64,000 nucleotides of DNA from positions 1 to 64,000 of the IMG/VR virus record IMGVR_UViG_3300012665_000817; one strand, written 5' to 3'. The translations under genes were made by a program, and so were the position numbers. Origin of the DNA: a virus. Taxonomy: Duplodnaviria > Caudoviricetes. The notes under the pieces were generated by a model. That model was not told where the DNA came from. It saw nothing but the letters and a program-made list of their open reading frames with translations, and searched no databases. This document shows, piece by piece, positions 465 through 15,504 of the stretch (the stretch's first letter is position 1; every line of letters begins with the position of its first letter).

Positions 465-2162
465 ATGGGTATATTCACCAACGACGATTCCACACCAGTC
501 ACTCCCGCTCCTAAAAAATCTGCTCCTTCAGCAATCTCAACAATCTTCACAAACCAAGCTCAGTCTGTTAGCTATTCAACACCTCGTGCACTTACTGCAG
601 CGGCTGCTCAATTAAAAATTAATGACAAAGGTGAATACGAGCAGTTTAGAACTCGTCGTTCAGCAGGGTCTAGCGCATGGCAAGCAGAAGCTTGGGAATA
701 CTACGACGCAATCGGTGAAGTGAAGTATGCATTTAATTTAGTTGCATCAGTTGTTTCAAGAATTAGAATTTATGCAGCAGTCATTGATGATCCTGCAGAG
801 GCTCCAGTATCTGTTCGCAACTCAGATAAGATTGATGATCGTTTAGCTCAAGCAGCAGAGCGTGCACTTGATCGTTTAAATTCCGCATACGGAGGACAGG
901 CAGGGTTACTTAAAGATGCAGCACTTAACTTATCGGTTACTGGGGAATGCTACCTCGTTCAAATGCCAGCTAGAGCTGGAGCTGGTTTACCCGAGTCTTG
1001 GGATATTCGTTCTGTTGATGAAGTAACAACAGATCCAAAGGGTGGATTTAATGTTATTGGTCGTCGTGAACAAGCTGGTTCTGGACAAAATAATAACGGT
1101 TTAACTACAAAACTTTCAAAGAATGCATTTGTAGGACGCATCTGGCGTTCACACCCACGTTTCTCTGATGAAGCAGATTCATCTTTGCGTGGTCTTCTTG
1201 ATCTTTGTGCCGAACTCCTTCTACTGAATAGGACATTCCGTGCTACTGCTCGTTCTCGCCTCAATGCTGGTGCTCTTTATCTTCCTGATGGTCTTTCGGT
1301 TGCGGCGCAAGCGGATCCAGACTACCCCTACGATTCTGAGGATGGTATCGGTCCAAACTTTACTGCTGAAGAAGCAGAAGACGAGTTCGAAGAGCAGCTA
1401 ATGGATGCGATGACAACTCCGATTCGTGACGAAGAGTCCGCATCAGCAGTTGTTCCGCTAATCATTCGTGGTCCTGCAGAACTTGGCGACAAGATTAAGC
1501 AGTTTAAGTTTGAGCGTTCATTTGATCCAATGCTTGCAGAGCGCAGTGACCGTGTTCTAGAGCGCATCTTGCAGGGACTTGATGTTCCAAAGGATGTTGT
1601 TACAGGTCTTGCAAATGTTAAGTACTCAAACGCACTTCAGATTGATGAAACTCTTTACAAGTCACACATCGAACCAATGATGTTGCTTATTGCAGATGCA
1701 CTTACTGTTGTTTATCTTCGTCCATACCTTATCGCAAGTGGATTTACAGATACAGATGTAAACCGCATTGTTGTTTGGTACGACCCATCAGCAATTGCAA
1801 CTCGCAATGACCGTGCAGCAGATGCTGATTCAGGATTTGATCGTGGTGCAGTTTCTTACGACACATGGCGTCGTGCTCATGGCTTCTCAGATCAAGATGC
1901 ACCAACTCCAACAGAGATGGCAATCCGTATGCTCTCAGAGCGTGGAGCCCTCACACCAGAACTTACAGAAGCAATGCTCGGAGCAGTTGCACCAGATGTT
2001 ATGAATGCAATTCGCAGCGCACAGCAAGCAGCTTCCGTTGCCCCGCTACCTCCAGAGGTTGAGCAAGCACTTCAGCAAGCATCAGCAGGTGCAGAGGCAG
2101 CAGGAAACGTTGCTGAATCCCCAGATGCAGAGACAGCACCTGAGGGAACAGAAAATGTCTGA
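465..2162 (+). CDS. portal protein (actinophage type)
   Basis: 565 aa, first in the head operon, SD GAGGAG upstream. WQxEAWEYYD.IGEVKYA and LNLSVTGECYL motifs resemble actinophage portals. Confidence 0.8.
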   Translation: MGIFTNDDSTPVTPAPKKSAPSAISTIFTNQAQSVSYSTPRALTAAAAQLKINDKGEYEQFRTRRSAGSSAWQAEAWEYYDAIGEVKYAFNLVASVVSRIRIYAAVIDDPAEAPVSVRNSDKIDDRLAQAAERALDRLNSAYGGQAGLLKDAALNLSVTGECYLVQMPARAGAGLPESWDIRSVDEVTTDPKGGFNVIGRREQAGSGQNNNGLTTKLSKNAFVGRIWRSHPRFSDEADSSLRGLLDLCAELLLLNRTFRATARSRLNAGALYLPDGLSVAAQADPDYPYDSEDGIGPNFTAEEAEDEFEEQLMDAMTTPIRDEESASAVVPLIIRGPAELGDKIKQFKFERSFDPMLAERSDRVLERILQGLDVPKDVVTGLANVKYSNALQIDETLYKSHIEPMMLLIADALTVVYLRPYLIASGFTDTDVNRIVVWYDPSAIATRNDRAADADSGFDRGAVSYDTWRRAHGFSDQDAPTPTEMAIRMLSERGALTPELTEAMLGAVAPDVMNAIRSAQQAASVAPLPPEVEQALQQASAGAEAAGNVAESPDAETAPEGTENV

Positions 2163-3132
2163 CGCAAAAGCTCCTAAGAAAGATCAAATTAAAGGTTCTA
2201 GCAAAAATAAAAAGGGATCTGCATCAGGATCTCGTAAAGTAGTTTTTTCTAAAGCAGTAGAGAAGTCTCTGCAGGAAAAAGTAGCGACACATAATGAAAA
2301 GGCTAGAGATGGCCGTCGTGCAACTTTAGGAATGCTTAAAGCAGTTTATCGTCGTGGCGCAGGTGCTTACAGCACTTCACATCGTCCCGGCATGACTCGC
2401 AACCAGTGGGCTATGGCTCGTGTTAATGCATTTTTAAAGATGCTCAAGTCTGGTAAGCCAGCGAACTCAGCTTACAAGTCAGACAACGACTTGCTCCCAG
2501 CAAAGCATCCTCGCTCAACAAAGAAGAACAACTCAATCACTGCTTCGGCTGGACTAGTTCCAGAAGAATCAGACCTAGCTAATGCTCTCATTGAGATCGC
2601 TGAGAAGTATGGAAAGTTTAATGAAGATGCAACAGGAATTTGGGCAGGATATACCCCAGCCGCAGAAAACAAGTACAAGGGAATCGGAGTCAAGTGTTCT
2701 TCATGTGTTCTATACATGGGTAATGGCTCGTGCAGAATCATCGAAACCGAAGTCGAGGACGAGGGGAAGTGTCGTTTCGCGGTTATTCCAGATGGGGTCG
2801 TTGATGTCGGAATTCTCGAAGGCGAAAAACTCGGAAACGAAATCCAATCAGTAGAAGAGCTTGCACAGATTTCAGAAGAGTATCGTTTTGAACAAGAACT
2901 TACTGTAGAACTACAAGATGAAGAAGATTACGACTCTCCAGAGCACGCCATCCTCTCTCTAGCTGAGTTCTCAGGGTTTGGCTATGAGGCAGAGCATGCA
3001 GTTCGTGCAGCTTGGCTTCGTGGAGTTCGTAACAATGAAAATCCATTTAAAAGAGCAGCTAATTTTGCATCACTAGGTTACGAAAGCATGGATTCAGATC
3101 TATTGCCTAAAAAGGGAGAAGATAATGTCTAA
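2155..3132 (+). CDS. head-associated protein: basic helical N-domain (VYRRGAGAY...WAMARVNAF, DUF5824-like), HiPIP-like 4-Cys domain, acidic C-domain
   Basis: Likely start ATG 2155, overlapping the portal stop (ATGTCTGA). Motifs read directly from the translation. Confidence 0.65.
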   Translation: MSDAKAPKKDQIKGSSKNKKGSASGSRKVVFSKAVEKSLQEKVATHNEKARDGRRATLGMLKAVYRRGAGAYSTSHRPGMTRNQWAMARVNAFLKMLKSGKPANSAYKSDNDLLPAKHPRSTKKNNSITASAGLVPEESDLANALIEIAEKYGKFNEDATGIWAGYTPAAENKYKGIGVKCSSCVLYMGNGSCRIIETEVEDEGKCRFAVIPDGVVDVGILEGEKLGNEIQSVEELAQISEEYRFEQELTVELQDEEDYDSPEHAILSLAEFSGFGYEAEHAVRAAWLRGVRNNENPFKRAANFASLGYESMDSDLLPKKGEDNV

Positions 3133-6100
3133 GAAGAATCAAAGACAGCTTCACATCCTCTCTCAGAGCGAGACTATCTTTAGTACTCGCCAACAGGCAC
3201 GCATTATTCGCAGTGAAGCACTACAGATGATCGAGGCAGCTAATGAATTTACAACTAATACCCGTAGAGTTAATCGTCGCTCAGCTTTTCGTGTTGTTTC
3301 TCGCTCTCTACACTCTTCTGAAGGTCTCCCATTTTCAGTTCGTAAGCACCAAGCGCTCACAGAACTCTCAAACTACATCTCACTTGCAAAATACAACAAG
3401 GTAGTTGGCTTAACAGCATTTAACACAGACCTTCTACCTCTTACACACCCTCGTTCTACTCGTGAACACTCGATGACTGCATCTGCAATCATTCGTACAC
3501 ACGTTCAGTGGGTCACAGATGATCCACGCATCACCGACGAGAACGCTAAGGCACTTATTGCATCTGCGATGCTTGCTCCAGCTAATTCTCCAGAGAAACT
3601 TTATGCAATTACACGCCTCGAGAACCTTCCACAGGGTCATGTTCCATTAGAGGCAATGACTGCAGCATATGGTGGAGGAAACTCTGCTGCTGCAAAGCGT
3701 GCTCGTGTTGCTCTCCAGCTCCGTGATCGCCTCGGCCGTTGGGTTGAGATGTTTGGTGGACTTGGTATCAAGGTAAAGCGTCGTGATGGAAGCACAGCAA
3801 GCCTTTCAGGTCGTGCAGTTGGTCAGAACATCTTTAGTCCACAACTTGCAGACGTTGAACTTGGCGATGGTCGCATTGTTGCAATGCCAATTCGTCAATC
3901 AAGAGGTGGAAACTTCTTAGCTAGCGATGAAGCAAAGAAAGATGGCTTCACTCGTGCTGGTTCAACAGCAGATGATATGGATGATCCAATCATTGATGAA
4001 GCAGACCTTACATTTATGGAAAGCCCAAGCTCATTCGATAAGGATGAGAAGGGAAGCAAGCAGGGAACAACTAAGTACACAGATCAGGCTTATGATGTAG
4101 TTAAGTTTGACAGTAACAAGCGAGCTTTGGAAGATATTGTCGAAACAAACAAGATCAGAGCTGAAAAAGATTTAGATGATGCCGCTGTTGATAAGCAAGG
4201 CGAGACAGATGCAGATACAGGTAAGCAGTTCTGGGATCCAGAGAAGCCAATCTACGCAGTTTCACGTCGTGGTGGCACTCCATTTGCTTACACACAGAGT
4301 TGGAACGATGCACAGCAGAGAATTCAAGCAGACCAAAGATTCCTCGATGAAGAAGAGGGTCGTACACCTCTTGCACGAATCACACAGGATGACAACACTC
4401 CTGAAGATGAGACTCCACTTGTAGATCAGCAAGATAAGTTTAAGAAGGAAGAGATTGCACGTCTTCCAGAGCCAGAAGCTGACGCAGAGGCTCCACAAGG
4501 TTTTGAATACAAGGTTCCAGAAGATACTTACGAAGTAACTAACCCAACTGCACCATATCGCTCAGTATCTGAGTATGACGACCCTGCATCTCTTGCAAAC
4601 ATGTTCCAAGGTGATGAACTTGTTGAAGGTCTCGATGATGCACTTGATACTGGTCTTGGTCGTTTAACATTCCCAGATTCAGTTGGACCTGACGGAGAAC
4701 CTACTGGTGGAGAGCAAGAAGTTCCAGCAGAGGCAATCCTCAAGGCAATTGATGAAAAGGGCGGAGACGCAGAACTCGCACTTGCTCAAGCATACGATAA
4801 GCGTCTTGGAACAAACGAGAACGAAGATGCACTTGCTGCAAAGCGTGAAGCAGATAAAGAAGGCAAAGTTGGCGAGCCAAAGAAGCTCGGCGAAGTATTT
4901 GATGAAGTAACAAAGGCTCCAGAGCCAGAACCAGAAGCACCTGCAGAAGAGGAAACTCCTGATGCAGATATCCCAGAGATTACTGAAGATGCAGAGCCAT
5001 CTACATACCCTGCTCTTATTGATGGACTTACTGAAGAAGAGCAAGCAGAGTTTGATAAGAACAAGGATTACACTCCATATCTTTCAGAGGATGCTCCAGT
5101 TGAATGGCCAGAAGGTTCTACACCTCCACAAAATAGAATTCTTAGTGAAGAAGAGCGTGCTCAAGCTCTAGAGATTGCTAACTCAGATATTCCTGATGAA
5201 GATCTTGTCGAGTCATACAACGGAGCGATTAAAAACAAGTATGACGAAGATGGTTATGCACCATTTGGAGATCTAGACGAAAATAACGAAGTTCAAACTA
5301 TCCAAGTACCAAGTGAAGTACTTCGTGATGCAATGAAGCTTCGTAACTTCGACATGGATGAGACTAATCAGCAAGTTGTAGATGGAACTTGGGATGAAGT
5401 AGATCCAGAAGATGAAGTTGCTCTTGAAGAAGAGCCTGTAGCAGAAATTCCTACACCAAGAATTCCAGATGAAGGCAAGGGAACTAAGGCTGGAAAAGAT
5501 CCTCTCAAGGAAGGCTGGGGATCAGAAGATTGGATTGATGAAACATCTAAGGATCCTCGTTTCCACGAGATGCTTAAGAAGAATAAAGACTTTGCAAGAC
5601 TTACTGGTTTCTTTAATGATCCAACATTTGATAGCCCTCTTCTTTCTGATTATCAGGATAAAGAGATGGAAGGCTTTGAGGCTGGAAGTGAAGTAGAGGC
5701 AATTGACACTGGAGAATATGGTTTTGAACCAGGACCTTCAGCTCGTGTTCAGTATGCACTTGATATTCTGCAAGATCCTACGCAGTCAGTTCGTGGTGGT
5801 TTCAAAGACTTCAGAACTGGCGAGCGCTCTGCAGAGAATGAAAGAAACATTCTTAAGGCAGCAGACGAGCAACTCGATCTTGCTAAGCAAGATTTGTCAG
5901 AGTCAGATGTTATTGAAAACAAAGCAATCGACTCTGTTCGTGCAACTCTTGCAAAAGAAATTGCAAAGCTTGATAAGCAGATCGAGAAAGATAAGAAGAA
6001 GGCAGAAGAGGATGCAATTGCACCTCAAGTTTCTTATCGTCTAAGAGGAGATCGCCTAGAGCTTCGCTCTGGTAAGAAGGCTCCATTTAGAATTCAAGAA

Positions 6101-9100
6101 GTTAAAGACTTCCTAGATGACAACGGTTTTGATTGGAACCCAGACGCTAAGGCTGAAACAAAGTCTGGCATGGATGAAAAGCAAGCTAAGGCTTTCCTCA
6201 AGGAACTTAAAGATAGATTTGGAATCGACCTACTCGAAAGAGAAGGACAAGCTCGACTTGATCTAGATGCAGTCGATGAAACTCCAGAACCAGAAGCAGA
6301 AGACTTAACACCAGAGACTACAGATGTTGCTGGCCCAGAGGTTTCAAAAGACAAGACAGATATTGCTGACGCACTTCCAGATACTTTGCCAGAAGGTTGG
6401 TCAAAGGATCCAGAGTCTGCAACTCTTGCTAAGAATGAAGATGGAACAATTCTTGATCTTGTTGATGAACCAGGTGCTAAGTATTGGTTCCTTCTTGGTG
6501 GCTCTCTAGAGCAGTCAGTTGAGTTTAATAATCCACAAGAAGCATTTGATTATCACGAAAAGAACATGAAGGGCGAGTCAGCCCCACTAAGTGACGGACC
6601 TTTCCGTCCCAATGGAATTCTTCCAGGACTTCCTGGATACAAGCGTGATCCAGAAGTACCTATAGATCTTAGAGGCGACTATATTAAAGTTGGCGATAGG
6701 GTTCTACACAGAGGCAAGTATAAAAAAGTTAAAGAAATTACTGGCAAAGGTCTAGATAGAACTGTTTGGTTTGAAGAAGAGTTCCCTGGCGAAAACAACT
6801 GGCTAACTGTTGGAATTAAGCCTCAGTCTGTTAAGAGTCCTCTAGAGAATGATGGACCTGAAACACTTGACGTTGCTGGCGAGAAAGTTATTAAAGTTCC
6901 TAATGGACTTGGAGACTGGGAGCTTGATAACTTTGTCTTGAGAAAAGTATTTGGTAAGTGGACTGTCCGTGATAAAAACGGTGTAAAGAAGTTCGGCAAA
7001 TATGACACGATGGAAGATGCAGTAAAGGCTATTCAAGAATCTAGAAAAGAAAAGCCAGCGGCAACTCCAACTCCTGCAGAAATAGTTCCTAACTTCAAGC
7101 CTAAGCCAAAAGCTACCTCCGAAGAAGATGTGTCCTCAGAGGAGAATGTAACAACACAGGTTGTTACTGATATGGAAGAAGAGGAAGCTCCCGAGGCGAC
7201 TCCTACAACTCCAGAAGAGACAACACCAACAGAGTCTGAAATCCCAGAACCTACAACACAGCGTAAGGTTCTCATCTTCAAACTTGTGTTTGCTAACTTT
7301 GGTCCTAGAATGTATCAAACTGCTGGAAAGGGATCTAAGGATCTTGCTCCAGAAGTACAGGCTATGTTTGACGAGCTTGCAAAACTAGATACAGAAACTC
7401 TCAAGGCGTTAGGTCGTAATGTTAACGAAACTTGGGGATGGAAATACATCAAGAATGTCGATCCTAAGAGAGGATCTAAGGCTGATACTCCAGACATTGG
7501 TGATGGAGAAGTAGAGATTGTTTCTGAGCCAGAACAACCTGCAAGCACAATTGATGAATCTAACATTGAAGACGCAGTAATCGTAACAACCCCACGCATT
7601 GCAACAGCTAAGACAACAGATCTTAAGCCAGGCGATGTTATGACTAAGGACTTCTTTACAGTTACAAAGGTAGAACCAGGATTTGAAAAGAAGCGTAATG
7701 GAGAAATGGTTCCAGCTTCTCGTGTAAGTGGCTATTACCCTGGCGGAGTAGAGCAGTCAAGCAAACTTTGGGCAGACGATGTTCTCTTCGATGTTTATCG
7801 TGATGTAACTCCTCCTGCAAAGGGAGATCTACCTGAACTCAATCAGCCAAAGATGGGTGATTACGGAAAGCTTACAAAGGTCAATGGCGATTGGGAACTA
7901 AAAGACCCAGCTGAGCAAAAGCAATTTGAACAAGATATGGAAAAGTATCAGGAGCAACTAGCTACTCAGAAAGCACTATGGGATGCTCCAGAAGTAGAAC
8001 CTACTGTAAAAGAATTTACACCTGAAAACACTCTTCACGTTGTTAATGCACTTGGTAAGGATCTTAAGCCAAACGACATTGCATTCCGTCGTGATGGAGA
8101 TAATCTCAGCGAGTTCTTTGTTATTGAAGAAGTTCTTCCAGGTACAGTTATGGTTGAGCGTGCAGATGGAAAGCCAGCTGAAGAAAAGGTTCAGATCCGT
8201 GGATACTACCCAGGACATGAATCACAAGTTAAGTCTTGGAAGGTCGGAACATCTGTTGAAGTTCTCCGTGGAGAAAAGGCAGAGAACATTCCTGCAAAGG
8301 GCGATAAGCCAGCAATCGAAAGTATTGAGCCAGGAACTCTTAAGGGTCAGGCTTACAAAGACAAGAATGCAGAAATTTCAGCAGCAAGAAAAGAAGCAGG
8401 TAGTGCATACACACCTAACCTAACAGCTACAGATATCCCAGCGGTGCTGGTACAAAAGCCAAGCAACTGGGACCGTGGAAATCGTCCAGCATTCTTTGGT
8501 AAAGCTGCAGAGCTTGCAAACCTCAAGGATGGAGCTGCAATCTCAGAAGCTCTTAAGGGCAAGAGAGTTGTTTACTTTGACTTTGAAACAGTAGGAACTG
8601 GAAAGTTTGATAACGATAATCCTGATGCACCTATTCAGGTTGCAGCATCTGTCTGGGAAGGTGGAGAGAAGGTTGGAGAGATCAACCTATTCATCAACCC
8701 AGGTGAACCTCTTGGAGACTTCTACTACAAGACAGATGCAGATGGAAATAAAGTTCTTGACCCAGAGAAGCTACTTATCTCAGACGGACAAATCGTTGAC
8801 GACGAGTTCCTAGCAAGCCAACCATCTATCGAAGAACAGCTTCGTGCATTTGCAGAGTTCGCTGGACAAGATGCAATCTTTGTTGCACACAACGCTGAGT
8901 TTGATACAAATACATTTGAGAAGTGGGCTAAGAAGTTTGGTATCGATTACAACATGGATGGTGTTATCGATACTCTTGAACTAGCAAAGAGCATGACTCC
9001 TAAGGGCAATAAGCTCGGTCAAGTTGCTAAGCGCTACGGCATTGAGAAGACAGATGAAGAGTGGCATGACGCTAGAACTGACTCAGAGGTTCTTCCAGCG

Positions 9101-12100
9101 ATTCTAGAAGGCTTACTTGGAGACATAAAGCCTGACAATAGAGAATTTGATAGTGCAACACGCCTTGCAGAGTTTAACGCCAAGCGTTCTGCATATAACG
9201 AAAAGATGGAAGCATTTAAGAAGCAAGAAGCAGAGCTTGCTATGGCTGAAGCAGTCAAACGTGGAATGTCTGGAGAGCAAGTATCTGTCGATGAGATGCT
9301 CGGTAAGCCTACGACAACATCTGGCTTTGGATCTGAAGGAAGCACAGATACTGCTGAAGAGTACGCCTACGAGTCAATCTTTGGTGGAAAGATTAACAAC
9401 TCTTGGATCGAAGATGATGAAAACACATTTGTTGTTGACGAAGGCGGAGCAACTGTTGGTGATATTAAGGTTGGTGACTTTGTCCCAGCTGAAGGTGGCG
9501 GATACCACGAAGTTGTAGAGCTTCAACAAGACCCAGAAGATCCAAACGGAACTATCGTTATTCGTAGAATTGTTTCAACTGGTGAGCTATACAGCACACG
9601 AGTTACAGAGAAGAAGTCTCCAGGAATTGGTTGGTCTAATGGAAAGGTTCTTAAGGGAACACTTCGTCGTCGTAATGAACTAGCTGGTAAGACACCTGCA
9701 GAAGTTAAAGATCTAGTATCTAAGCCAGTAGTTGTTGCTCCAGAACCTAAGACAAAGCCAAAGACAGCTACACCTAAGGGTAAGAAGTCTATTACTCCAG
9801 AAGAGACTCAGAGTGTTGTCTCAGATGCAATCGAAACAATTACATCTGGTGCTAAGCCAGACGCTACTGTTGAGGAAGCAGTTAAGGGTCTTCCAGTAGA
9901 TGACACAACTAAAACTGCAGTACTTGCTGTTCGTCCAGATGCATCTATCAATCATCTTTCAGCAGATGGTGTTGCTCTTAAGGTTGGCGATAGAGTTCGT
10001 GGAGTTAAGCACGGCCGCATGGGTGAAGTCAGAGCAATCCTTACAACATACGGTCCTCGTGGATACAAGAACTATGTCAAGGTAAAGTTTGATGACGCTG
10101 CTAAGCGTGAAAACATTTCAGCAGGTTCACTACAGATTATTAATCCAGATGATGGTGGCGGTTTCTTTGTAGATACAACACCTCCAACAGTTGGAGAGCC
10201 AGTAAATCCTAATGAAACTCCTAAATCAACAGAAGAACTAACTTCACTTCTTACTGGAGATGTTGCAGATAACACTCCTACAGTTGAAGTCCCTGAAGAG
10301 CCTGTAGTTATGGATGCTGAAGAGCGAAGCAGAATTTGGAAAGAAAACGAAGAAAAGAGAATGAAGTACGCTCTTGATCTAAACTACCGCCAAGTAAGCC
10401 CTGAAGCATTAGCAGAACTCACAGCGGCAGTTCAAGATATTTCTCAGTACGACAAGGGTCATCAAAGATCTGTTACAGCATTTATGCCAAGTCTTTCTAC
10501 TGGAAAACCTGTAAAGGCAACATATACATTTGTAAAGCCAAGTAAAAAAGAGCTTGAATATCGTGAAGACTTTGAACCAGACGATATTATTGTCAAGATT
10601 GGTCCAAGCAACACTGAAGCAGTTATCAAATCAGATGGAAAAATTTTCTATTTCGATAATCCATCTATTCCAAACTGGTGGTTCAGCGTTAGATCTCCAG
10701 ACCTATACACAGCTATTGAAAAGAAAGATGAAGTCACTCTTCCTCTAGGAGAAAAACCTGACCTTGAAAATATGGGAATGATCTCTCTTAATCAAGAGTT
10801 CCCAATTGAATCTGCAGGTAGCCCAGACGATGAACTAGATCCAGATTTTATTGCAGATAGCCCTGATGCAGAGCCAAAGGGAATCAAGCCAACTAAGCAA
10901 CAGCAAGCAGTTATTGATGCTGTAGTTTCTGGTAAGGATGTAATTGTTCAGGCTCTTGCTGGAACAGGCAAGACCAGCACACTTAAGATGGCTGCAAAGG
11001 CTGTTGCAGAAAAAGATCCAGAAAAAACTATTCTTTACATTGCCTTTAATAAGGCTGTAGCTGCAGAACTCAATGCAGACCCAGATCGTCCTTCAAATAT
11101 GATTGCAAGAACCAACACACAGGTTGCTTGGCACCACTCACCTACATGGATGCAAAAGCGTAGTTTCGATAAGACATCTATTGGATTCCCAACAGAAGTT
11201 GCAGACCATCTTGAGTTCGGACCAGTTAAGGTCACAGAGATTAAGAAGGATGGAACAAAGGTAGAAGCAACTCTCTCAAGTAGAGAAGTAGTTGCAGTTG
11301 TTCGTCAGGCAGTAACAGCATTTGCACAAAGTGCCGATGAAAAGATTATGCCTAAGCACTTCACAGATAATTTTGTAGATATTCCTGAAGTATTCATTGA
11401 CTACGCAAACCGCTGGTGGGACGACATCTCAAGCCCTAAGGGTCGCTTGACAATGAACCAGTCTTTCCCAGAAAAATATGTTCAACTTAATGGCATTGAT
11501 GTAACAATGTCTCCAGATTCAGAAACTACAAATCCAGACAAGGTAATTCCTGCAGCAGACATTATCTTCTTTGACGAAGCACAGGATATTAACGATGTTG
11601 CTGGTGACTGGGTGCGTAAGCAAAATGTACAAAAGGTATTTGTTGGCGATGGAAACCAATCTATCTATGGCTTCCGTGGAGCTAAGGATCAACTAGATAC
11701 TCTTGAAGGAGCAGAGAAGCTTCAAATCACAGAGTCATTCCGTTTCGGTCCAAACATTGCAGCACCTGCTAACCGTTTCCTTGCTGTTGCTGGAAAGCCA
11801 GAGAGAGTCATTGGAGCTGGTAAAGATCAAGGTAAGGTTGTAGAAAGTCTTGACCAGATGCCAGACCCAGATGCAGTTCTTGTTCGCACAAATGGTGGCG
11901 GATTCAAGGCAATGCTTGAGTATCTTGAGCAAGGAAAAACTGTAGGTATTAGTCAATCAACCAAGACAAGACTTGAAGAAGTTATTGATACAACAAGTTG
12001 GCTAATGGGCGGAAAGAAAGGCTCAAAGCCAGCAAAATACAATGCAGAAATTGGAATGTACGACTCTTGGGAAGAGCTTTCTACTGCAGTGCGAGAAGGA

Positions 12101-14551
12101 AAAGCTCGTCCAGTTAAGGCTTTCTACGACTTGGTAACACAAAACGGTATGCAGAGTATTCGTGACATTCTAGATCGTGTTGTTGTAGAGCGTGAAGAAA
12201 CTCCAGAAAGCAAGATTGCTCTTAAGAACTACAAGCCTCTTACTCTAGATAAGGTAGAAGATGGCTCTACTGGAAAGCTAGATAAAGATGTAACTTACAA
12301 GATCGAAGGTGATGATATTGTCCTCACTGGATTCTTTAAGTTTAATAACGAAAAGCTTAAAGAAGCAGGATTTAAGGCAAGAAAGAATCCAGACGGAACT
12401 TGGGCAAATGATCGTCGCCTTACAATTGAAGATGATCTTAAGAAGGTAGATAAGCTCAACCAACTTAAGAAGATCCTTGAGGGTGTCATCGAGCCAGTTA
12501 AGGCAGATGTAGTTATTACCACAGCGCATCAATCAAAGGGTCTGCAATGGGACAAGGTTCGTATATTTGATGACTTCTGGGGTCCAAAGTTTAATAAGGA
12601 GACTGGCGAGATTGATATGCCAGCACCAGAAGAACTTCGTCTTGCATATGTTGCAATTACTCGTGCTCAGAAAGAAGTTTACCTAGGACCTCTTAGCTGG
12701 GTTAATGACTACACATCTGAAGAAGATGAGCAAGCAACTCCATCATCTTTAATATTGCAAGCAACGAACATTGAAACAGATCCAGTACCAGTTACACCAG
12801 AAGAGTTTGGTGATGAAGTACAGGAAACTGCAAAGAAGATTGACCCAGCTACTCAGAAGATTGCAGATGCAATTATTGCAGCCCTTGAAGCAGGAACTGC
12901 TCCTTGGCGCAAGCCGTGGACTGGCGGAGGATTCCTTCCAACTAGCGTTGCAACTGGCAAGATGTATGAAGGAACAAACGTCCTTGTACTCTGGGCAGCT
13001 CAGGAGCGCAATGGTTGGTCAGACAATCGTTGGCTTACATACAAGCAAGCAGAAAAGCTTGGCGGAAACATCAAGCGTGGCGAAAAGGCAACATCAATCA
13101 TCCACTGGACTCCAAAGTTCAAGGATGTTAAGCAGCCAGATGGAACTATCGAAAAGGTATTTGTTTACACACCGCCAAAGATCATTAACGTCTTTAACGT
13201 AGAACAAGCAGAGGGCATTAATCTCCCTCCACTAGTTAAGGGTGAGCCAATCCCAGTGAGCCAAGCAGAGCAGACTCTTCTTGACACATACAAGGATCGT
13301 CCAGAGATTTTCTACAAGTCTCAAGACAGCGCTTACTACTCACCAGTAACAGACACTATTCACTTGCCACTTCGTGAGCAGTTCGGTGCAGAGCAAGACT
13401 TGTTTGAGACTCTAGTTCACGAACTTGCACACAGCACAGGGCACACATCTCGTGTAAACCGCAAGGATCTTACAGACAACTACGGAACTCATAAGGCAAG
13501 CCGTGGTGAAGAAGAACTTATTGCAGAAATCTCTGTAGCACTTGTTGCTGCTCGTCTTGGAGTTGAGATTGACTTCGGTAACGTTGCATCTTATGCAAAG
13601 TCATGGCTTGGAGCTCTTAAGAACGATCCAACAATGATTATCAAGGCAGCCAAGCAAGCACAAAAGGCTGTAGACCATATGCTAGGCAAGCAAGAAGAGC
13701 CAGCAAAGGTTGATGAAGAAGGAAACCCTGAAGAGCCTGTTGGCGAAGGTGTTGGTAGCGAAGGTAAGACTGGCGATGAAATTGCAGAAGATGCAGGGTT
13801 AAAGCCAGAGTCAACTCCTGAACCTAATGTCGGCGAGCAGGGTAAAACTGGAGAAGAGATTGCTCAAGAAGATGACATCAAACCTGCTGGTATAAAAGGT
13901 GGACACGATCTTAGCCCTAGAGAAGCATTTACCAAAGCTGTAAATCGTACCGATGTAGATATTAAAAAAGTATATGGTGCAGAAGAAAAATACCAGCCTC
14001 AACTGCAGAAAGATATGGAACCACCTGCTGCCCCTAGACGTGCAGATTTTCAAGATAGTGACTCTTATATAGCAGCTCATAAAAAATATGTTAAAGACTT
14101 TAATAACTACTACCTTGAAAGATCAACAAATATTCAATCTTCAATAGGAGAAAAACATTTAGACGGGTCTCCAAAAGGTGTTCAAAATTATGTAAAAGAT
14201 ATAATCACCGCCGATTGGTTTGTAGAAGCCTTTGGCGATGGAGGACAGATAGGAAGACCTCCAGTTAGCCTGTTCAGTGGTAAGAGCCATGGTGGTAAAT
14301 ATACTTATGGCTTTAAAAACGGTGCGTTTATGTCATCATTAAAAATTAACAGACTTTTAGCGAAAAGTGAGCCAAATATCCTTCACGAAATTGCTCATTT
14401 TGCTACAACAATTGCCGTGGCAGAGGGGCATGACGCTCATGGTGTAGAGTATAGAATGAATTATATTTTTATCACTGATAAAGTACTTGGTCGTGAAGCT
14501 GCAGAAAGTCTTAAAGAGTCTTACAGAAAGGGAAATCTAAATGTCGGATGA
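3125..14551 (+). CDS. giant polyvalent head-associated protein: DEDDh exonuclease + UvrD-like SF1 helicase + ArdC-N/MPTase + C-terminal zincin
   Basis: 3808-aa uninterrupted ORF between portal and prohead protease. Motifs: DFET/HNAEFD/HDARTD; ALAGTGKT/DEAQD/GDGNQSIYGFRGA/SFRFG/TAHQSKG/YVAITRA; PWRKPW/YEGTN/WLTYKQA/VFNVEQ; HELAH; HEIAH. Confidence 0.9.
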   Translation: MSKKNQRQLHILSQSETIFSTRQQARIIRSEALQMIEAANEFTTNTRRVNRRSAFRVVSRSLHSSEGLPFSVRKHQALTELSNYISLAKYNKVVGLTAFNTDLLPLTHPRSTREHSMTASAIIRTHVQWVTDDPRITDENAKALIASAMLAPANSPEKLYAITRLENLPQGHVPLEAMTAAYGGGNSAAAKRARVALQLRDRLGRWVEMFGGLGIKVKRRDGSTASLSGRAVGQNIFSPQLADVELGDGRIVAMPIRQSRGGNFLASDEAKKDGFTRAGSTADDMDDPIIDEADLTFMESPSSFDKDEKGSKQGTTKYTDQAYDVVKFDSNKRALEDIVETNKIRAEKDLDDAAVDKQGETDADTGKQFWDPEKPIYAVSRRGGTPFAYTQSWNDAQQRIQADQRFLDEEEGRTPLARITQDDNTPEDETPLVDQQDKFKKEEIARLPEPEADAEAPQGFEYKVPEDTYEVTNPTAPYRSVSEYDDPASLANMFQGDELVEGLDDALDTGLGRLTFPDSVGPDGEPTGGEQEVPAEAILKAIDEKGGDAELALAQAYDKRLGTNENEDALAAKREADKEGKVGEPKKLGEVFDEVTKAPEPEPEAPAEEETPDADIPEITEDAEPSTYPALIDGLTEEEQAEFDKNKDYTPYLSEDAPVEWPEGSTPPQNRILSEEERAQALEIANSDIPDEDLVESYNGAIKNKYDEDGYAPFGDLDENNEVQTIQVPSEVLRDAMKLRNFDMDETNQQVVDGTWDEVDPEDEVALEEEPVAEIPTPRIPDEGKGTKAGKDPLKEGWGSEDWIDETSKDPRFHEMLKKNKDFARLTGFFNDPTFDSPLLSDYQDKEMEGFEAGSEVEAIDTGEYGFEPGPSARVQYALDILQDPTQSVRGGFKDFRTGERSAENERNILKAADEQLDLAKQDLSESDVIENKAIDSVRATLAKEIAKLDKQIEKDKKKAEEDAIAPQVSYRLRGDRLELRSGKKAPFRIQEVKDFLDDNGFDWNPDAKAETKSGMDEKQAKAFLKELKDRFGIDLLEREGQARLDLDAVDETPEPEAEDLTPETTDVAGPEVSKDKTDIADALPDTLPEGWSKDPESATLAKNEDGTILDLVDEPGAKYWFLLGGSLEQSVEFNNPQEAFDYHEKNMKGESAPLSDGPFRPNGILPGLPGYKRDPEVPIDLRGDYIKVGDRVLHRGKYKKVKEITGKGLDRTVWFEEEFPGENNWLTVGIKPQSVKSPLENDGPETLDVAGEKVIKVPNGLGDWELDNFVLRKVFGKWTVRDKNGVKKFGKYDTMEDAVKAIQESRKEKPAATPTPAEIVPNFKPKPKATSEEDVSSEENVTTQVVTDMEEEEAPEATPTTPEETTPTESEIPEPTTQRKVLIFKLVFANFGPRMYQTAGKGSKDLAPEVQAMFDELAKLDTETLKALGRNVNETWGWKYIKNVDPKRGSKADTPDIGDGEVEIVSEPEQPASTIDESNIEDAVIVTTPRIATAKTTDLKPGDVMTKDFFTVTKVEPGFEKKRNGEMVPASRVSGYYPGGVEQSSKLWADDVLFDVYRDVTPPAKGDLPELNQPKMGDYGKLTKVNGDWELKDPAEQKQFEQDMEKYQEQLATQKALWDAPEVEPTVKEFTPENTLHVVNALGKDLKPNDIAFRRDGDNLSEFFVIEEVLPGTVMVERADGKPAEEKVQIRGYYPGHESQVKSWKVGTSVEVLRGEKAENIPAKGDKPAIESIEPGTLKGQAYKDKNAEISAARKEAGSAYTPNLTATDIPAVLVQKPSNWDRGNRPAFFGKAAELANLKDGAAISEALKGKRVVYFDFETVGTGKFDNDNPDAPIQVAASVWEGGEKVGEINLFINPGEPLGDFYYKTDADGNKVLDPEKLLISDGQIVDDEFLASQPSIEEQLRAFAEFAGQDAIFVAHNAEFDTNTFEKWAKKFGIDYNMDGVIDTLELAKSMTPKGNKLGQVAKRYGIEKTDEEWHDARTDSEVLPAILEGLLGDIKPDNREFDSATRLAEFNAKRSAYNEKMEAFKKQEAELAMAEAVKRGMSGEQVSVDEMLGKPTTTSGFGSEGSTDTAEEYAYESIFGGKINNSWIEDDENTFVVDEGGATVGDIKVGDFVPAEGGGYHEVVELQQDPEDPNGTIVIRRIVSTGELYSTRVTEKKSPGIGWSNGKVLKGTLRRRNELAGKTPAEVKDLVSKPVVVAPEPKTKPKTATPKGKKSITPEETQSVVSDAIETITSGAKPDATVEEAVKGLPVDDTTKTAVLAVRPDASINHLSADGVALKVGDRVRGVKHGRMGEVRAILTTYGPRGYKNYVKVKFDDAAKRENISAGSLQIINPDDGGGFFVDTTPPTVGEPVNPNETPKSTEELTSLLTGDVADNTPTVEVPEEPVVMDAEERSRIWKENEEKRMKYALDLNYRQVSPEALAELTAAVQDISQYDKGHQRSVTAFMPSLSTGKPVKATYTFVKPSKKELEYREDFEPDDIIVKIGPSNTEAVIKSDGKIFYFDNPSIPNWWFSVRSPDLYTAIEKKDEVTLPLGEKPDLENMGMISLNQEFPIESAGSPDDELDPDFIADSPDAEPKGIKPTKQQQAVIDAVVSGKDVIVQALAGTGKTSTLKMAAKAVAEKDPEKTILYIAFNKAVAAELNADPDRPSNMIARTNTQVAWHHSPTWMQKRSFDKTSIGFPTEVADHLEFGPVKVTEIKKDGTKVEATLSSREVVAVVRQAVTAFAQSADEKIMPKHFTDNFVDIPEVFIDYANRWWDDISSPKGRLTMNQSFPEKYVQLNGIDVTMSPDSETTNPDKVIPAADIIFFDEAQDINDVAGDWVRKQNVQKVFVGDGNQSIYGFRGAKDQLDTLEGAEKLQITESFRFGPNIAAPANRFLAVAGKPERVIGAGKDQGKVVESLDQMPDPDAVLVRTNGGGFKAMLEYLEQGKTVGISQSTKTRLEEVIDTTSWLMGGKKGSKPAKYNAEIGMYDSWEELSTAVREGKARPVKAFYDLVTQNGMQSIRDILDRVVVEREETPESKIALKNYKPLTLDKVEDGSTGKLDKDVTYKIEGDDIVLTGFFKFNNEKLKEAGFKARKNPDGTWANDRRLTIEDDLKKVDKLNQLKKILEGVIEPVKADVVITTAHQSKGLQWDKVRIFDDFWGPKFNKETGEIDMPAPEELRLAYVAITRAQKEVYLGPLSWVNDYTSEEDEQATPSSLILQATNIETDPVPVTPEEFGDEVQETAKKIDPATQKIADAIIAALEAGTAPWRKPWTGGGFLPTSVATGKMYEGTNVLVLWAAQERNGWSDNRWLTYKQAEKLGGNIKRGEKATSIIHWTPKFKDVKQPDGTIEKVFVYTPPKIINVFNVEQAEGINLPPLVKGEPIPVSQAEQTLLDTYKDRPEIFYKSQDSAYYSPVTDTIHLPLREQFGAEQDLFETLVHELAHSTGHTSRVNRKDLTDNYGTHKASRGEEELIAEISVALVAARLGVEIDFGNVASYAKSWLGALKNDPTMIIKAAKQAQKAVDHMLGKQEEPAKVDEEGNPEEPVGEGVGSEGKTGDEIAEDAGLKPESTPEPNVGEQGKTGEEIAQEDDIKPAGIKGGHDLSPREAFTKAVNRTDVDIKKVYGAEEKYQPQLQKDMEPPAAPRRADFQDSDSYIAAHKKYVKDFNNYYLERSTNIQSSIGEKHLDGSPKGVQNYVKDIITADWFVEAFGDGGQIGRPPVSLFSGKSHGGKYTYGFKNGAFMSSLKINRLLAKSEPNILHEIAHFATTIAVAEGHDAHGVEYRMNYIFITDKVLGREAAESLKESYRKGNLNVG
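8560..9130 (+). other. DEDDh (DnaQ-like) 3'-5' exonuclease domain within the giant protein (approximate bounds)
   Basis: ExoI VYFDFETVG, ExoII FVAHNAEFD and ExoIII WHDARTD are all present. Confidence 0.9.
10880..12710 (+). other. UvrD/Rep-like SF1 helicase domain within the giant protein (approximate bounds)
   Basis: Walker A ALAGTGKT, Walker B FFDEAQD, and motifs VGDGNQSIYGFRGA, ESFRFG, LVRTN, TTAHQSKGLQW, AYVAITRA. Confidence 0.92.
12848..13690 (+). other. ArdC-like ssDNA-binding domain plus MPTase zincin within the giant protein (approximate bounds)
   Basis: IIAALEAGTAPWRKPW...YEGTNVLVL...WLTYKQAEKLGGNIKRGEKAT...VFNVEQ, then AYYSP..D.IHLP...HELAHSTGH...EELIAE...ASY.KSW. This is the canonical ArdC architecture. 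Confidence 0.9.
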
Positions 14552-14785: not shown

Positions 14786-15504
14786 AACTTTCTAATGCTA
14801 AGTCCTACCCGCTCGAAGGTATGTCTTTAATCTATGCAAATGGCGAGAATGTTGTTTATCAAGCTGTATTTTCTACAGAAAAGTTTGGTACTTTCACAAG
14901 AGTAGATGGCCAATGGCTTGCCTTGTCTCCAGACGATACTAGCCTCGAGAACCTTTCAATTATGGACATTCTTCCTGCTGACTACAAAGTAGTTACAGAT
15001 ATGTTCGATGCTGCTCAGAAGGCAAATACTTATCTTACATATGACCAAGTTAAAGACTATGAAGTTGCCTACTCTTTTGAAGAAAGTGGCAAGTCTATGA
15101 CTGCAGCAGTCGAGACATCAGAGGGATGTCCTCCTGCTACTTCAGACATCGCTATAAACTTAAAAAATAGAGAAGGTGCTATCAAAACTGCTGGTTATGG
15201 ACCAATGAATCCAGCACTTCCAAATAACAAGTTTTGGCAAGCAAAGGCAGATCGCTGGACTGTTCCAGTTGAAGATGCAAAGAAATCCCTGTGTGGAAAT
15301 TGCGCTGTATTCATTCAAACACCAAAAATGCTTGACTGTATTGCTTCTGGACTTGGAAATGAAGCAGGAAATGACGCTTGGGGCTCAATCGAGGCTGGCG
15401 ATCTAGGGTATTGTGAAGCATTCGACTTTAAATGTGCAGCTTCTAGAACATGCGATGCATGGGTAGCTGGCGGACCAGTAACTGAGGAGTCAGGAAAAAT
15501 ATGA
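14782..15504 (+). CDS. head-module protein with C-terminal Cys-rich HiPIP-like domain
   Basis: CGNCAVF...GYCEAFDFKCAASRTCDAW motif. ATGA-coupled on both sides. Confidence 0.6.
   Translation: MKLSNAKSYPLEGMSLIYANGENVVYQAVFSTEKFGTFTRVDGQWLALSPDDTSLENLSIMDILPADYKVVTDMFDAAQKANTYLTYDQVKDYEVAYSFEESGKSMTAAVETSEGCPPATSDIAINLKNREGAIKTAGYGPMNPALPNNKFWQAKADRWTVPVEDAKKSLCGNCAVFIQTPKMLDCIASGLGNEAGNDAWGSIEAGDLGYCEAFDFKCAASRTCDAWVAGGPVTEESGKI

What the first reader, a model, noticed from the sequence alone, without database searches (positions are those of the whole stretch)
2230..3487. Shared DLLPxxHPRS leader domain in adjacent head proteins: candidate capsid cargo-loading tag
Seen: the 2155 protein has DLLPAKHPRSTKKNNSITASAG and the giant protein N-terminus has DLLPLTHPRSTREHSMTASAI, so the same motif is immediately followed by the putative cleavage motif in both. 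The upstream helices also align loosely (RRATLGMLKAVYRRG...QWAMARVNAFL vs RRVNRRSAFRVVSRS...HQALTELSNYI). The 2155 C-terminus ends in a third variant (AVRAAWLRG...DSDLLP). Inferred: a basic helical domain addresses cargo to the procapsid, portal or DNA and is clipped off after loading, analogous to the T4 capsid-targeting sequence. Together with the two findings above this would be a modular cargo-loading system.
Basis: partly seen in the sequence, partly recalled or inferred. Interest (0 to 1): 0.78.

Follow-up and report, generated by a model that had tools for sequence, protein, structure and literature searches.

The report
DUF5824 pro-domain on phage head cargo
Two neighbouring head genes of an uncultured freshwater phage share a small basic domain (Pfam DUF5824, function unknown) placed just before a likely protease cut site, so it is probably a removable assembly-stage handle on proteins carried inside the capsid; cutting and loading have not been measured, and the domain is not purely a tag elsewhere.

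Summary
The DLLPxxHPRS motif is the C-terminal signature of Pfam DUF5824. The 325-aa protein after the portal gene is a canonical member. The 3808-aa polyvalent protein starts with a degenerate copy (profile-profile probability 96%, same predicted topology). The third 'copy' shares only DxDLLP.

New here:
- In 80 of 80 related viral contigs, a giant with this leader sits directly after a DUF5824 + C-terminal-domain gene.
- A hydrophobic-T-A-(S/A) motif follows at fixed spacing. It occurs 9 times in the six head proteins (0.6 expected) and keeps its positions in four relatives. It fits an assemblin-type prohead protease cut site.
- A cut at the second site of the giant (A180|A181) would give the native N-terminus of leaderless orthologues in cultured Arthrobacter and Microbacterium phages, which also lack the DUF5824 gene.

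The 'clipped cargo-loading tag' reading is therefore plausible for this lineage but unproven. Against a universal address tag, DUF5824 is 55-75% identical across unrelated phages, usually lies mid-protein or at the C-terminus, and is fused to portals, MuF, prohead proteases and a capsid protein. It looks like a basic head-interior module in its own right.

The scan noted the same pair on other genomes. Verdict: a new variant of a known kind, of moderate interest.

The parts
465..2162 (+). Portal gene. Its stop overlaps the start of the next gene (ATGTCTGA).
   Evidence: phrog_776 portal, E 1.9e-111; junction read. An LTAAAA motif at residue 43 is conserved in four relatives.
2155..3132 (+). 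325-aa DUF5824 carrier protein: basic DUF5824, a putative cut site, a Cys-rich middle part, then an acidic C-terminal domain.
   Evidence: Pfam PF19141 at 37-40 bits against a cut-off of 25. There are 3388 homologues. Net charge is +22 for residues 1-131 and -23 for 132-325.
2158..2520 (+). Canonical DUF5824 domain: a basic arm plus a three-helix bundle (helices 33-49, 58-71, 82-99) ending in DNDLLPAKHPRST (nt 2482-2520).
   Evidence: Own-genome HMM match over residues 2-128. pLDDT is above 90 for residues 31-120. Invariant columns are listed.
2536..2547 (+). Putative prohead-protease site I-T-A|S (residues 128-131) in the linker after DUF5824.
   Evidence: Motif enrichment. The same position carries the motif in DSL-LC01, L011 and L012 under the pattern used; L010 has the near variant IAAS. 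It lies 5-11 residues (mostly 8) after HP in 41 of 48 distinct relatives. pLDDT falls to 55-67 here.
2902..3129 (+). Conserved acidic C-terminal helical domain ending in DSDLLP (nt 3091-3108).
   Evidence: pLDDT is above 90 for residues 251-320. The domain is present next to the giant in 80 of 80 related loci. Only DxDLLP aligns to DUF5824.
3125..14551 (+). 3808-aa polyvalent protein (RNase T-like exonuclease, UvrD-like helicase, ArdC-N, MPTase). Its start overlaps the previous stop (ATGTCTAA).
   Evidence: Pfam and PHROG hits; junction read. Net charge after residue 230 is -234.
3203..3472 (+). Degenerate DUF5824-like domain of the giant (residues 27-116). It keeps NTDLLPLTHPRST (nt 3422-3460) and has lost the RRGxGAxSxSHRPG loop.
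   Evidence: hhalign 96.3%; HMM E 1e-11 in the reverse direction; helices 21-40, 51-64 and 70-90 plus a DLL turn. D102-P105, H108 and P109 are invariant in 40 aligned relatives.
3473..3484 (+). Putative cut site 1 of the giant, M-T-A|S (residues 117-120).
   Evidence: It lies exactly 7 residues after HP in 32 of 39 distinct leaders. The residues are mostly conserved in 76 homologues, but some clades lack them. The site sits at the start of a predicted helix.
3656..3667 (+). Putative cut site 2 of the giant, M-T-A|A (residues 178-181), which marks the end of the roughly 180-aa pro-region.
   Evidence: DSL-LC01 has the site at the matching position; the pattern did not recur there in L010-L012. 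pLDDT falls below 50 at residues 184-189. Residue 6 of Atuin gp71 aligns with residue 187 here. Cece gp68 starts about 12 residues before the aligned block.
15501..20252 (+). 1583-aa protein with an S78-type prohead protease region, the presumed processing enzyme.
   Evidence: phrog_18402 and phrog_3244 head maturation protease hits. The Pfam Peptidase_S78 match is weak and below threshold (E 7.5e-4, 20.1 bits against a cut-off of 21). It carries SLTAAG and SVTAAG motifs.
20415..22508 (+). Major capsid protein with a 270-aa acidic scaffold-like N-terminus and a V-T-A|S motif at residues 270-273.
   Evidence: phrog_777; sequence; APVTA(A/S)ADN is conserved in L010 and L011.

Best explanation
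The shared segment is a DUF5824 (PF19141) domain. It is canonical in the 325-aa protein encoded right after the portal gene and degenerate at the N-terminus of the 3808-aa polyvalent (anti-restriction/helicase/exonuclease) protein. In this freshwater actinophage lineage the two genes are an inseparable, translationally coupled pair.

Inferred mechanism:
- Both proteins enter the procapsid.
- The phage's assemblin-type prohead protease then cuts after hydrophobic-T-A. In the small protein (ITA|S) this frees a +22 basic DUF5824 fragment from an acidic remainder.
- In the giant (MTA|S, then MTA|A at residue 180) it removes a pro-region of about 180 aa and exposes the QLRDxxGRW N-terminus that leaderless relatives have natively.
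- The pro-region is an accessory assembly-stage handle. Its invariant DLLPxxHP face most likely docks the giant to a shared partner, either the neighbouring DUF5824-CTD protein or the portal, so that both are loaded together.

DUF5824 in general is a basic head-interior module, not merely an address label.

Confidence by step:
- Homology: shown.
- Head-interior location: strongly inferred (about 0.8).
- Cleavage: inferred (about 0.6).
- Docking role: inferred (about 0.35-0.4).
For: Homology.

Pairing: 80 of 80 IMG/VR loci with a leader-bearing giant have a DUF5824 + CTD gene ending at the giant's start, with leader identity ranging from 31% to 95%. The arrangement also holds in DSL-LC01, L010, L011 and L012. 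Both are absent from all 46 cultured Gordonia, Arthrobacter, Microbacterium, Streptomyces, Curtobacterium and Dulem phage records that share the capsid protein.

Modularity: the leader heads giants with different cargo, including ArdC/MPTase, primase, ADP-ribosyltransferase and a PF00454 domain. The first ~215 residues (leader plus the QLRD block) give a clear consensus that decays afterwards.

Cut sites: [ILMV]TA[SA]x occurs 9 times in the six proteins from portal to capsid protein against 0.6 expected. It occurs once in the 27 other proteins, where about 1.7 are expected. Most positions are conserved in four diverged relatives, and the spacing after HP is fixed. The pattern matches the (V/L/I)-x-A|S rule of herpesvirus assemblin, a relative of phage prohead proteases (established knowledge).

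Mature end: Atuin gp71 and Cece gp68 begin within about 10 residues of site 2 and follow the portal gene (directly in Atuin, after a 62-aa ORF in Cece) with no DUF5824 gene between.

Head interior: DUF5824 is fused C-terminally to three portal families, to MuF, and to S78 and XkdF prohead proteases. In Roseobacter phage CRP-821 it forms a single DUF5824-protease-capsid protein.

Analogy: the first 30 residues of P1 DarB target it to the capsid, and P1's helper gene ulx is numbered next to darB, portal and protease in the ORF table (PMC9024508).
Against: - No proteomic or biochemical data exist for this lineage, so cleavage and encapsidation are inferred.
- The motif pattern was widened after seeing the hits.
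- Site 1 lies at the start of a confidently predicted helix, and some giant clades lack it.
- Leaderless orthologues show that the leader is dispensable for having a giant in the head module. The QLRD module, shared with the protease protein at E 1e-4, may be the true anchor.
- DUF5824 is 55-75% identical across phages with unrelated head genes, which is not expected of a capsid-specific address.
- It is N-terminal in only 18 of 123 representatives and sits at the extreme C-terminus in 29.
- Other phages carry a single copy per genome, so homotypic docking cannot be general.
- The 80 loci are related phages, not independent events.
Confidence: 0.5

Rival explanations
1. DUF5824 is itself the payload. 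It would be a strongly basic, DNA-binding or host-factor-binding internal head protein, functionally like T4 IPI-III, that phages place in the capsid by fusing it to whatever already goes there (portal, MuF, protease, capsid protein) or by a separate tag. The giant's copy would be a decayed tandem duplicate kept only as a cleavable spacer.
For: - Mean net charge is +14.7 over about 132 aa in 124 representatives.
- Identity is 55-75% across phages of Actinobacteria, Proteobacteria and Salinibacter, which points to a universal ligand.
- Fusions to portals and to a capsid protein need no address.
- In the T4-like pelagiphage HTVC008M the DUF5824 core sits at the C-terminus of a nucleotidyltransferase that begins MKTLKELL, which resembles the T4 targeting peptide, and it lacks DLLPxxHP.
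- The unverified scan note e1-5706563 reads a similar protein the same way.
- The giant's copy has lost the RRGxGAxSxSHRPG loop, the most conserved polar patch.
Against: - The degenerate copy is under clear constraint. DLLP and HP are invariant and the spacing to the TAS motif is fixed over 31-95% identity, so it does something.
- The DxDLLP motif recurs at the end of the unrelated C-terminal domain.
- No DNA-binding fold was recognised. The only PDB matches are weak sigma-region-2-like three-helix hits with Z at or below 5.9.
Confidence: 0.3
2. There is no cleavage. The DUF5824-like domain would stay on the giant as a permanent N-terminal anchor that ties it, and the small protein, to the portal in the mature virion. 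This is the role MuF/SPP1 gp7 domains play in other polyvalent proteins.
For: - The small protein occupies the gene position after the portal that MuF usually holds.
- Portal-DUF5824 and portal-MuF-DUF5824 fusions exist.
- The leader and the following helices are predicted as one well-ordered unit (pLDDT 83-93).
- The hTA(S/A) motif could be conserved for structural reasons.
Against: - The motif is enriched only in head proteins and mostly sits in linkers before recognisable domains, including the mature capsid fold.
- The leaderless orthologues' N-terminus coincides with site 2.
- No MuF similarity was found in either protein.
Confidence: 0.15
3. DLLPxxHP is a processing signal rather than a loading signal. 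It would be an exosite where the prohead protease docks to cut a fixed distance downstream.
For: The spacing is constant at 7 residues in giants and mostly 8 (range 5-11) in the small protein family. The motif is the best-conserved part of the degenerate copy.
Against: - The other candidate sites (portal, capsid protein, 240-aa protein, protease) have no DLLP nearby.
- Most DUF5824 proteins end a few residues after HPxSxK or lack a following site. Only 10 of 91 have one.
- The C-terminal DSDLLP is followed only by the stop.
Confidence: 0.1

Closest known systems
Pfam DUF5824 (PF19141), uncharacterised viral domain
   Same: The small protein scores above the curated threshold. The quoted DLLPxxHPRS is the C-terminal signature of the family, with D, D, L, L invariant and P, H, P nearly so in 150 representatives.
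   Different: The giant's copy is below Pfam detection and lacks the RRGxGAxSxSHRPG loop. No function is recorded for the family, and no paper in the library mentions it.
T4 capsid-targeting sequence of IPI-III and Alt, removed by the gp21 prohead protease
   Same: It is an N-terminal element on proteins carried in the head and ejected, followed by a prohead-protease site and shared by several cargo proteins.
   Different: The T4 element is a peptide of about 10 aa cut at L/I-x-E. Here it is a folded domain of 90-180 aa with an h-T-A|S-type motif. Targeting has not been shown here.
Phage P1 Dar system: DarB N-terminal 30-residue capsid signal with helper proteins Ulx, DdrB, DarA and Hdf (PMC9024508, PMC12810830)
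   Same: A giant (250 kDa) anti-restriction helicase-type protein is loaded into the head through its N-terminus. A small helper gene sits immediately upstream, beside the portal and protease genes.
   Different: No sequence relationship was found or tested. DarB's signal is short, and no common signal was found among the Dar proteins. Here the helper and the cargo share a homologous domain.
MuF/SPP1 gp7-headed polyvalent proteins and MuF polymorphic toxins (PMC5512222, PMC5576092)
   Same: A constant N-terminal head-association module precedes variable effector domains, and the gene lies next to the portal. The same partner domains appear, including zeta toxin and 2H phosphoesterase.
   Different: No MuF domain is present. 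In some proteins DUF5824 co-occurs with MuF, so the two are distinct.
Herpesvirus assemblin release and maturation sites, (V/L/I)-x-A|S
   Same: The motif has the same residue pattern as the candidate sites, and the protease clan is related to phage S78 prohead proteases.
   Different: Cleavage has not been demonstrated here. The Thr at P2 is a lineage-specific preference.
Encapsulin cargo-loading peptides
   Same: A short conserved docking motif sits near a terminus of ferritin-like and other cargo inside an HK97-fold shell. DUF5824 is fused to ferritin-like domains in 8 of 79 representatives and in L012.
   Different: Encapsulin peptides are unstructured C-terminal tails of about 10 aa. There is no sequence similarity, and the resemblance is an analogy only.

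Membership tests
Pfam DUF5824 (PF19141) | Match to the family HMM above the gathering score (25 bits), tested on the 2155-3132 protein | tested here: met
   37.1 and 40.3 bits; 42 bits in the own-genome search.
Pfam DUF5824 (PF19141) | Match to the family HMM above the gathering score, tested on the N-terminus of the giant protein | tested here: not met
   There is no PF19141 hit even at E up to 10. Remote homology is supported by hhalign at 96.3%, by the reverse HMM hit at E 1e-11 and by shared BFVD structural neighbours.
Pfam DUF5824 (PF19141) | Conserved signature residues: the RRGxGAxSxSHRPG loop and the terminal DxDLLPxxHP | tested here: met
   The small protein has both. The giant keeps only the terminal motif, so the giant's copy is a degenerate relative and not a full member.
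T4-type capsid-targeting sequence | Short (about 10 aa) N-terminal peptide ending in an L/I-x-E gp21 site | tested here: not met
   The leader is a folded domain of 116-180 aa, and the motif is h-T-A-(S/A).
T4-type capsid-targeting sequence | Sufficient to direct a foreign protein into the capsid, then removed by the prohead protease | not testable with these tools
   This needs procapsid expression or phage genetics.
MuF / SPP1 gp7 head-morphogenesis domain (PF04233) | Match to Phage_Mu_F | tested here: not met
   hmmscan at E up to 10 gave no hit for the DUF5824 half (residues 1-182) or the last 143 residues of the small protein, or for the giant's first 200 residues. The full proteins gave none at E up to 0.01.
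Polyvalent proteins of phages (Iyer et al. 2017, PMC5512222) | Several effector domains in one polypeptide, typically with ArdC-N and MPTase, encoded among packaging or head genes | tested here: met
   RNase_T, UvrD helicase, ArdC-N and MPTase-PolyVal lie in one ORF between the portal and the prohead protease.
Assemblin-type prohead protease substrates | Recurrent (V/L/I/M)-x-A|(S/A) motif at domain boundaries of head proteins | tested here: met
   9 hits against 0.6 expected, restricted to head proteins, and conserved in position.
Assemblin-type prohead protease substrates | Actual cleavage at those bonds | not testable with these tools
   No virion proteome exists for this lineage. DSL-LC01 is itself assembled from a metagenome.
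P1 DarB-type N-terminal capsid signal | Sequence or structural similarity to the DarB N-terminus or to Ulx | not tested
   No P1 sequence was fetched. The comparison is functional only.

The most novel reading that the evidence does not exclude
The DLLPxxHP-terminated DUF5824 fold is a portable, phage-wide docking module for the capsid interior, comparable to encapsulin cargo-loading peptides. Through it, tailed phages would load swappable cargo (ferritin-like, Fe-S-like, zeta-toxin, 2H phosphoesterase and giant anti-restriction proteins) next to the portal. Any protein fused to it could then be encapsidated and delivered.
Probability: 0.2. Interest if true: 0.8.

Novelty: new variant of a known kind. 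Interest (0 to 1): 0.55.

Why it matters
DUF5824 has thousands of members in environmental phages (2339 cluster representatives at E up to 1e-3) and no assigned role. This work places it inside the capsid and links it to a two-gene module that accompanies giant anti-defence proteins of very abundant freshwater actinophages.

If the pro-domain does guide loading, it would be a third, structurally different solution to getting large effectors into a head, alongside the T4 and P1 signals and MuF. It would also be a candidate handle for packaging foreign proteins.

The predicted cut sites and mature N-termini can be tested directly in existing freshwater metaproteomes.

Tried and rejected
- Fold assignment: Foldseek against PDB gave nothing at E up to 0.001. 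VIA-align gave only sigma-factor region-2-like three-helix matches with Z 5-5.9, below the level at which helical bundles mean anything. No fold claim is made.
- The ESM Atlas search with PF19141 excluded gave one unnamed viral cluster at 0.81, which is uninformative.
- A literature search for DUF5824 found 0 papers.
- The third copy as a true DUF5824 duplicate was rejected at the sequence level, since only 7 columns align.
- General homotypic docking (one DUF5824 on an anchor, one on the cargo) was rejected as a family-wide rule, because other phages have a single copy per genome.
- 'Hits confined to head operons' holds only in part. Of five stand-alone look-ups, two looked like head modules, two lay beside PolIII-alpha/PHP genes and one contig was too short.
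- A look-up of the 5432-aa relative failed on the tool's length limit.
Full report
SETTING. The window is the first 64 kb of an 89-kb IMG/VR viral contig that is about 67% complete. The gene order is as follows:
- portal, 465-2162 (phrog_776, E 1.9e-111)
- a 325-aa protein, 2155-3132
- a 3808-aa polyvalent protein, 3125-14551, carrying RNase T-like exonuclease, UvrD-like helicase, ArdC-N and MPTase-PolyVal
- a 240-aa protein
- a 1583-aa protein with an S78-type prohead protease region
- a 697-aa capsid protein with a 270-aa acidic N-terminus
- siphovirus tail genes

The closest named relative is the metagenome-assembled Actinomycetia phage DSL-LC01. More distant capsid relatives are cultured Microbacterium, Arthrobacter and Gordonia phages. 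Portal, small protein and giant are joined by identical 8-nt overlaps, ATGTCTGA and ATGTCTAA, each preceded by a purine-rich ribosome-binding site.

OBSERVATION. The quoted strings are present. Several independent tests support a real relationship:
- BLASTP of the two proteins gives 29% identity over 112 residues, E 6e-6.
- A profile of 76 giant N-termini aligns to a profile of 124 DUF5824 segments over 92 columns (hhalign probability 96.3%, E 1.9e-9).
- The giant-leader HMM finds the small protein at E 1e-11 among all six-frame ORFs of the genome.
- AlphaFold2 gives matching topologies. The small protein has helices 33-49, 58-71 and 82-99, then a DLL turn at 111-113. The giant has helices 21-40, 51-64 and 70-90, then a DLL turn at 101-103.
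- The giant's model retrieves the same BFVD DUF5824 proteins as the small protein's model, though with weak E-values.

The third 'copy' at the small protein's C-terminus aligns only over DxDLLP. It is nonetheless a confident helical bundle ending in the same turn. The pattern [DNST]xD[LIMV]LP occurs at exactly these three places in the whole genome.

WHAT THE DOMAIN IS. The small protein is a bona fide member of Pfam DUF5824 (37-42 bits against a cut-off of 25). A full HMMER search of 1.84 billion cluster representatives found 2339 hits at E up to 1e-3. The best 150 are 49-80% identical (mostly 55-75%) over about 120 residues, although the host proteins range from 160 to 2100 aa.

DNDLLPxxHP[RK]S[ST][KR] is the family's terminal signature, and many proteins end 3-10 residues after it. 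The motif is therefore not private to these two genes. The domain is N-terminal in 18, at the extreme C-terminus in 29 and internal in 73 of 123 representatives; 3 more are too short to classify. It is strongly basic, with a mean net charge of +14.7. No paper in the library mentions it, and no solved fold matches convincingly.

WHERE THE DOMAIN LIVES. Among 79 representatives of at least 400 aa, the co-occurring Pfam domains are:
- Peptidase_S78 (8), XkdF-type protease (2) and Mu-like protease (1)
- Phage_Mu_F (4)
- three different portal families (3)
- ferritin-like (8) and DUF3721 (8)
- zeta toxin (2), 2H/LigT and PNKP phosphatase

In the portal fusions DUF5824 follows the portal domain, at or near the C-terminus in the three simplest cases; that end is known to face the capsid interior in solved portals. 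One protein has the order portal-MuF-DUF5824. Roseobacter phage CRP-821 encodes, right after its portal, a single 974-aa DUF5824-S78-capsid protein. Salinibacter phages carry DUF5824 in the middle of an 846-aa protein of unknown function; only its sequence past the domain looked protease-like to me, and Pfam found no protease there. This places DUF5824 inside procapsids.

The domain is not confined to head operons. Two of the four stand-alone cases with informative neighbours lie beside PolIII-alpha/PHP genes, and two lie in head-like modules. In the T4-like pelagiphage HTVC008M, the DUF5824 core ends a nucleotidyltransferase that starts MKTLKELL and lacks DLLPxxHP.

THE PAIR. Of 110 large proteins found with the giant's N-terminal ~200 residues (76 of 2100-5400 aa, 34 shorter), every one of the 76 long ones has the motif 68-126 residues from its N-terminus, and cargo varies downstream: ArdC/MPTase, helicase, primase, ADP-ribosyltransferase and a PF00454 domain. 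D102-P105, H108 and P109 are invariant.

A scan of IMG/VR returned 80 loci with leader identity of 31-95%. In 80 of 80, a gene encoding canonical DUF5824 plus the acidic C-terminal DxDLLP domain ends right at the giant's start. The Cys-rich middle part of the small protein is optional. In L012 a ferritin-like domain precedes a degenerate DUF5824.

None of the 46 cultured Gordonia, Arthrobacter, Microbacterium, Streptomyces, Curtobacterium and Dulem phage records that share the capsid protein has a DUF5824 gene or the leader. In Arthrobacter phage Atuin the giant (gp71) follows the portal directly. In Microbacterium phage Cece a 62-aa ORF lies between portal and gp68.

CUT SITES. The pattern [ILMV]TA[SA]x occurs 9 times in the six proteins from portal to capsid protein against 0.6 expected. 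It occurs once in the other 27 proteins of the window, where about 1.7 are expected. The pattern was generalised after seeing the first hits, so this count is partly circular.

Positional conservation is the stronger evidence. In DSL-LC01, L010, L011 and L012 the motif recurs at most of the matching places:
- the portal N-terminus
- after DUF5824 in the small protein
- after the leader's HP, and in DSL-LC01 again about 60 residues later
- before the Cys-rich domain of the 240-aa protein
- inside the protease protein
- at the boundary between the scaffold-like and mature parts of the capsid protein

The motif lies exactly 7 residues after HP in 32 of 39 distinct leaders. It lies 5-11 residues (mostly 8) after HP in 41 of 48 small-protein relatives.

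The pattern equals the (V/L/I)-x-A|S rule of herpesvirus assemblin, which belongs to the same protease clan as phage prohead proteases. This rests on my own knowledge, and the analogy was suggested by scan note e1-5935112.

The most telling result concerns site 2 of the giant. Residue 6 of Atuin gp71 aligns with residue 187 of the window's giant (59% over 27 residues, E 3e-8). Cece gp68 begins about 12 residues before the same block. A cut at A180|A181 would therefore recreate the native N-terminus of the leaderless orthologues. That N-terminus is the QLRDxxGRW module, which also recurs in the protease protein (E 1e-4).

INTERPRETATION. Some steps are shown and others inferred.
- Shown: the homology, the modular and separable nature of the leader, its strict linkage to the neighbouring DUF5824 gene, and the head association of the family.
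- Inferred with moderate confidence (about 0.6): processing at the hTA|(S/A) sites.
- Inferred with lower confidence (0.35-0.4): the leader serves as a docking handle.

The best argument that DLLPxxHP has a role of its own is that it is the one part kept in the degenerate copies (the giants and the L012 ferritin protein), which have lost the family's conserved polar loop. The motif also recurs at the end of the unrelated C-terminal domain.

The best arguments against a simple address tag are the following:
- the family's extreme conservation across phages with unrelated capsids
- its fusion to proteins that need no address
- its frequent C-terminal or internal position
- the existence of leaderless giants

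I therefore read DUF5824 as a basic head-interior module with its own, unknown ligand, possibly DNA. In this lineage a decayed copy has been recruited as a cleavable pro-domain that couples the giant to its small companion. This resembles the Ulx and DdrB-assisted loading of DarB through its N-terminus in P1 (PMC9024508). Three rivals cannot be excluded without experiments: payload only, permanent portal anchor, and protease exosite.

NOVELTY. Capsid-targeting signals, prohead-protease propeptides and polyvalent proteins are all known (PMC5512222, PMC9024508). The new elements are the domain used, the homologous helper-cargo pair and a first functional placement for DUF5824. First-reader notes of this scan recorded the same pair on other genomes (e1-5949504, e1-5949511).

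Noticed in passing
window 2155-2162 and 3125-3132: Both gene junctions (portal to small protein, small protein to giant) use the same 8-nt overlap, ATGTCTGA and ATGTCTAA. Both upstream proteins end in (E/D)NV. This suggests translational coupling of the three genes and perhaps a duplicated junction.
   Followed up: partly
window 3665-3760 (giant residues 181-212); also 16620-16646 in the protease protein: The QLRDxxGRW block that follows cut site 2 is the very N-terminus of the leaderless giants of Arthrobacter phage Atuin and Microbacterium phage Cece. It recurs in the 1583-aa protease protein (HMM E 1e-4). It may be the real capsid anchor of these giants.
   Followed up: partly
L012:8669-10000; also proteins P0213, P0217, P0223, P0226, P0228, P0237, P0280, P0305: Ferritin/Dps-like domains are fused to DUF5824 on either side of it. 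In L012 such a protein takes the portal-adjacent slot. Ferritin-like cargo inside a phage head would parallel encapsulin cargo.
   Followed up: partly
window 2650-2790 compared with L084 and L095: The Cys-rich (CxxC-x8-C-x12-C) middle part of the small protein is an optional insert. Some relatives go straight from DUF5824 to the C-terminal domain, so the position behaves as a swappable cargo slot.
   Followed up: partly
window 20415-21224: The first 270 residues of the capsid protein are an extremely acidic, Ala/Glu-rich low-complexity stretch ending at VTA|SAD. It is probably a fused scaffold and a possible electrostatic partner for the basic DUF5824 segments.
   Followed up: no
window 3815-14551: The giant protein beyond residue 230 has a net charge of -234, which is unusually acidic for a DNA-acting enzyme array.
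   Followed up: no
L016:1884-3674 (Pelagibacter phage HTVC008M gp130): This T4-like phage protein annotated as a cytidyltransferase ends in a DUF5824 core without DLLPxxHP and starts MKTLKELL, which resembles the T4 capsid-targeting peptide.
   Followed up: partly
L049 and L058 (same 160,704-bp IMG/VR contig): The DUF5824 gene and giant pair appears twice, about 136 kb apart, on one contig. A near-identical 136,029-bp contig exists (L057), so the longer record is probably an assembly longer than one genome.
   Followed up: no
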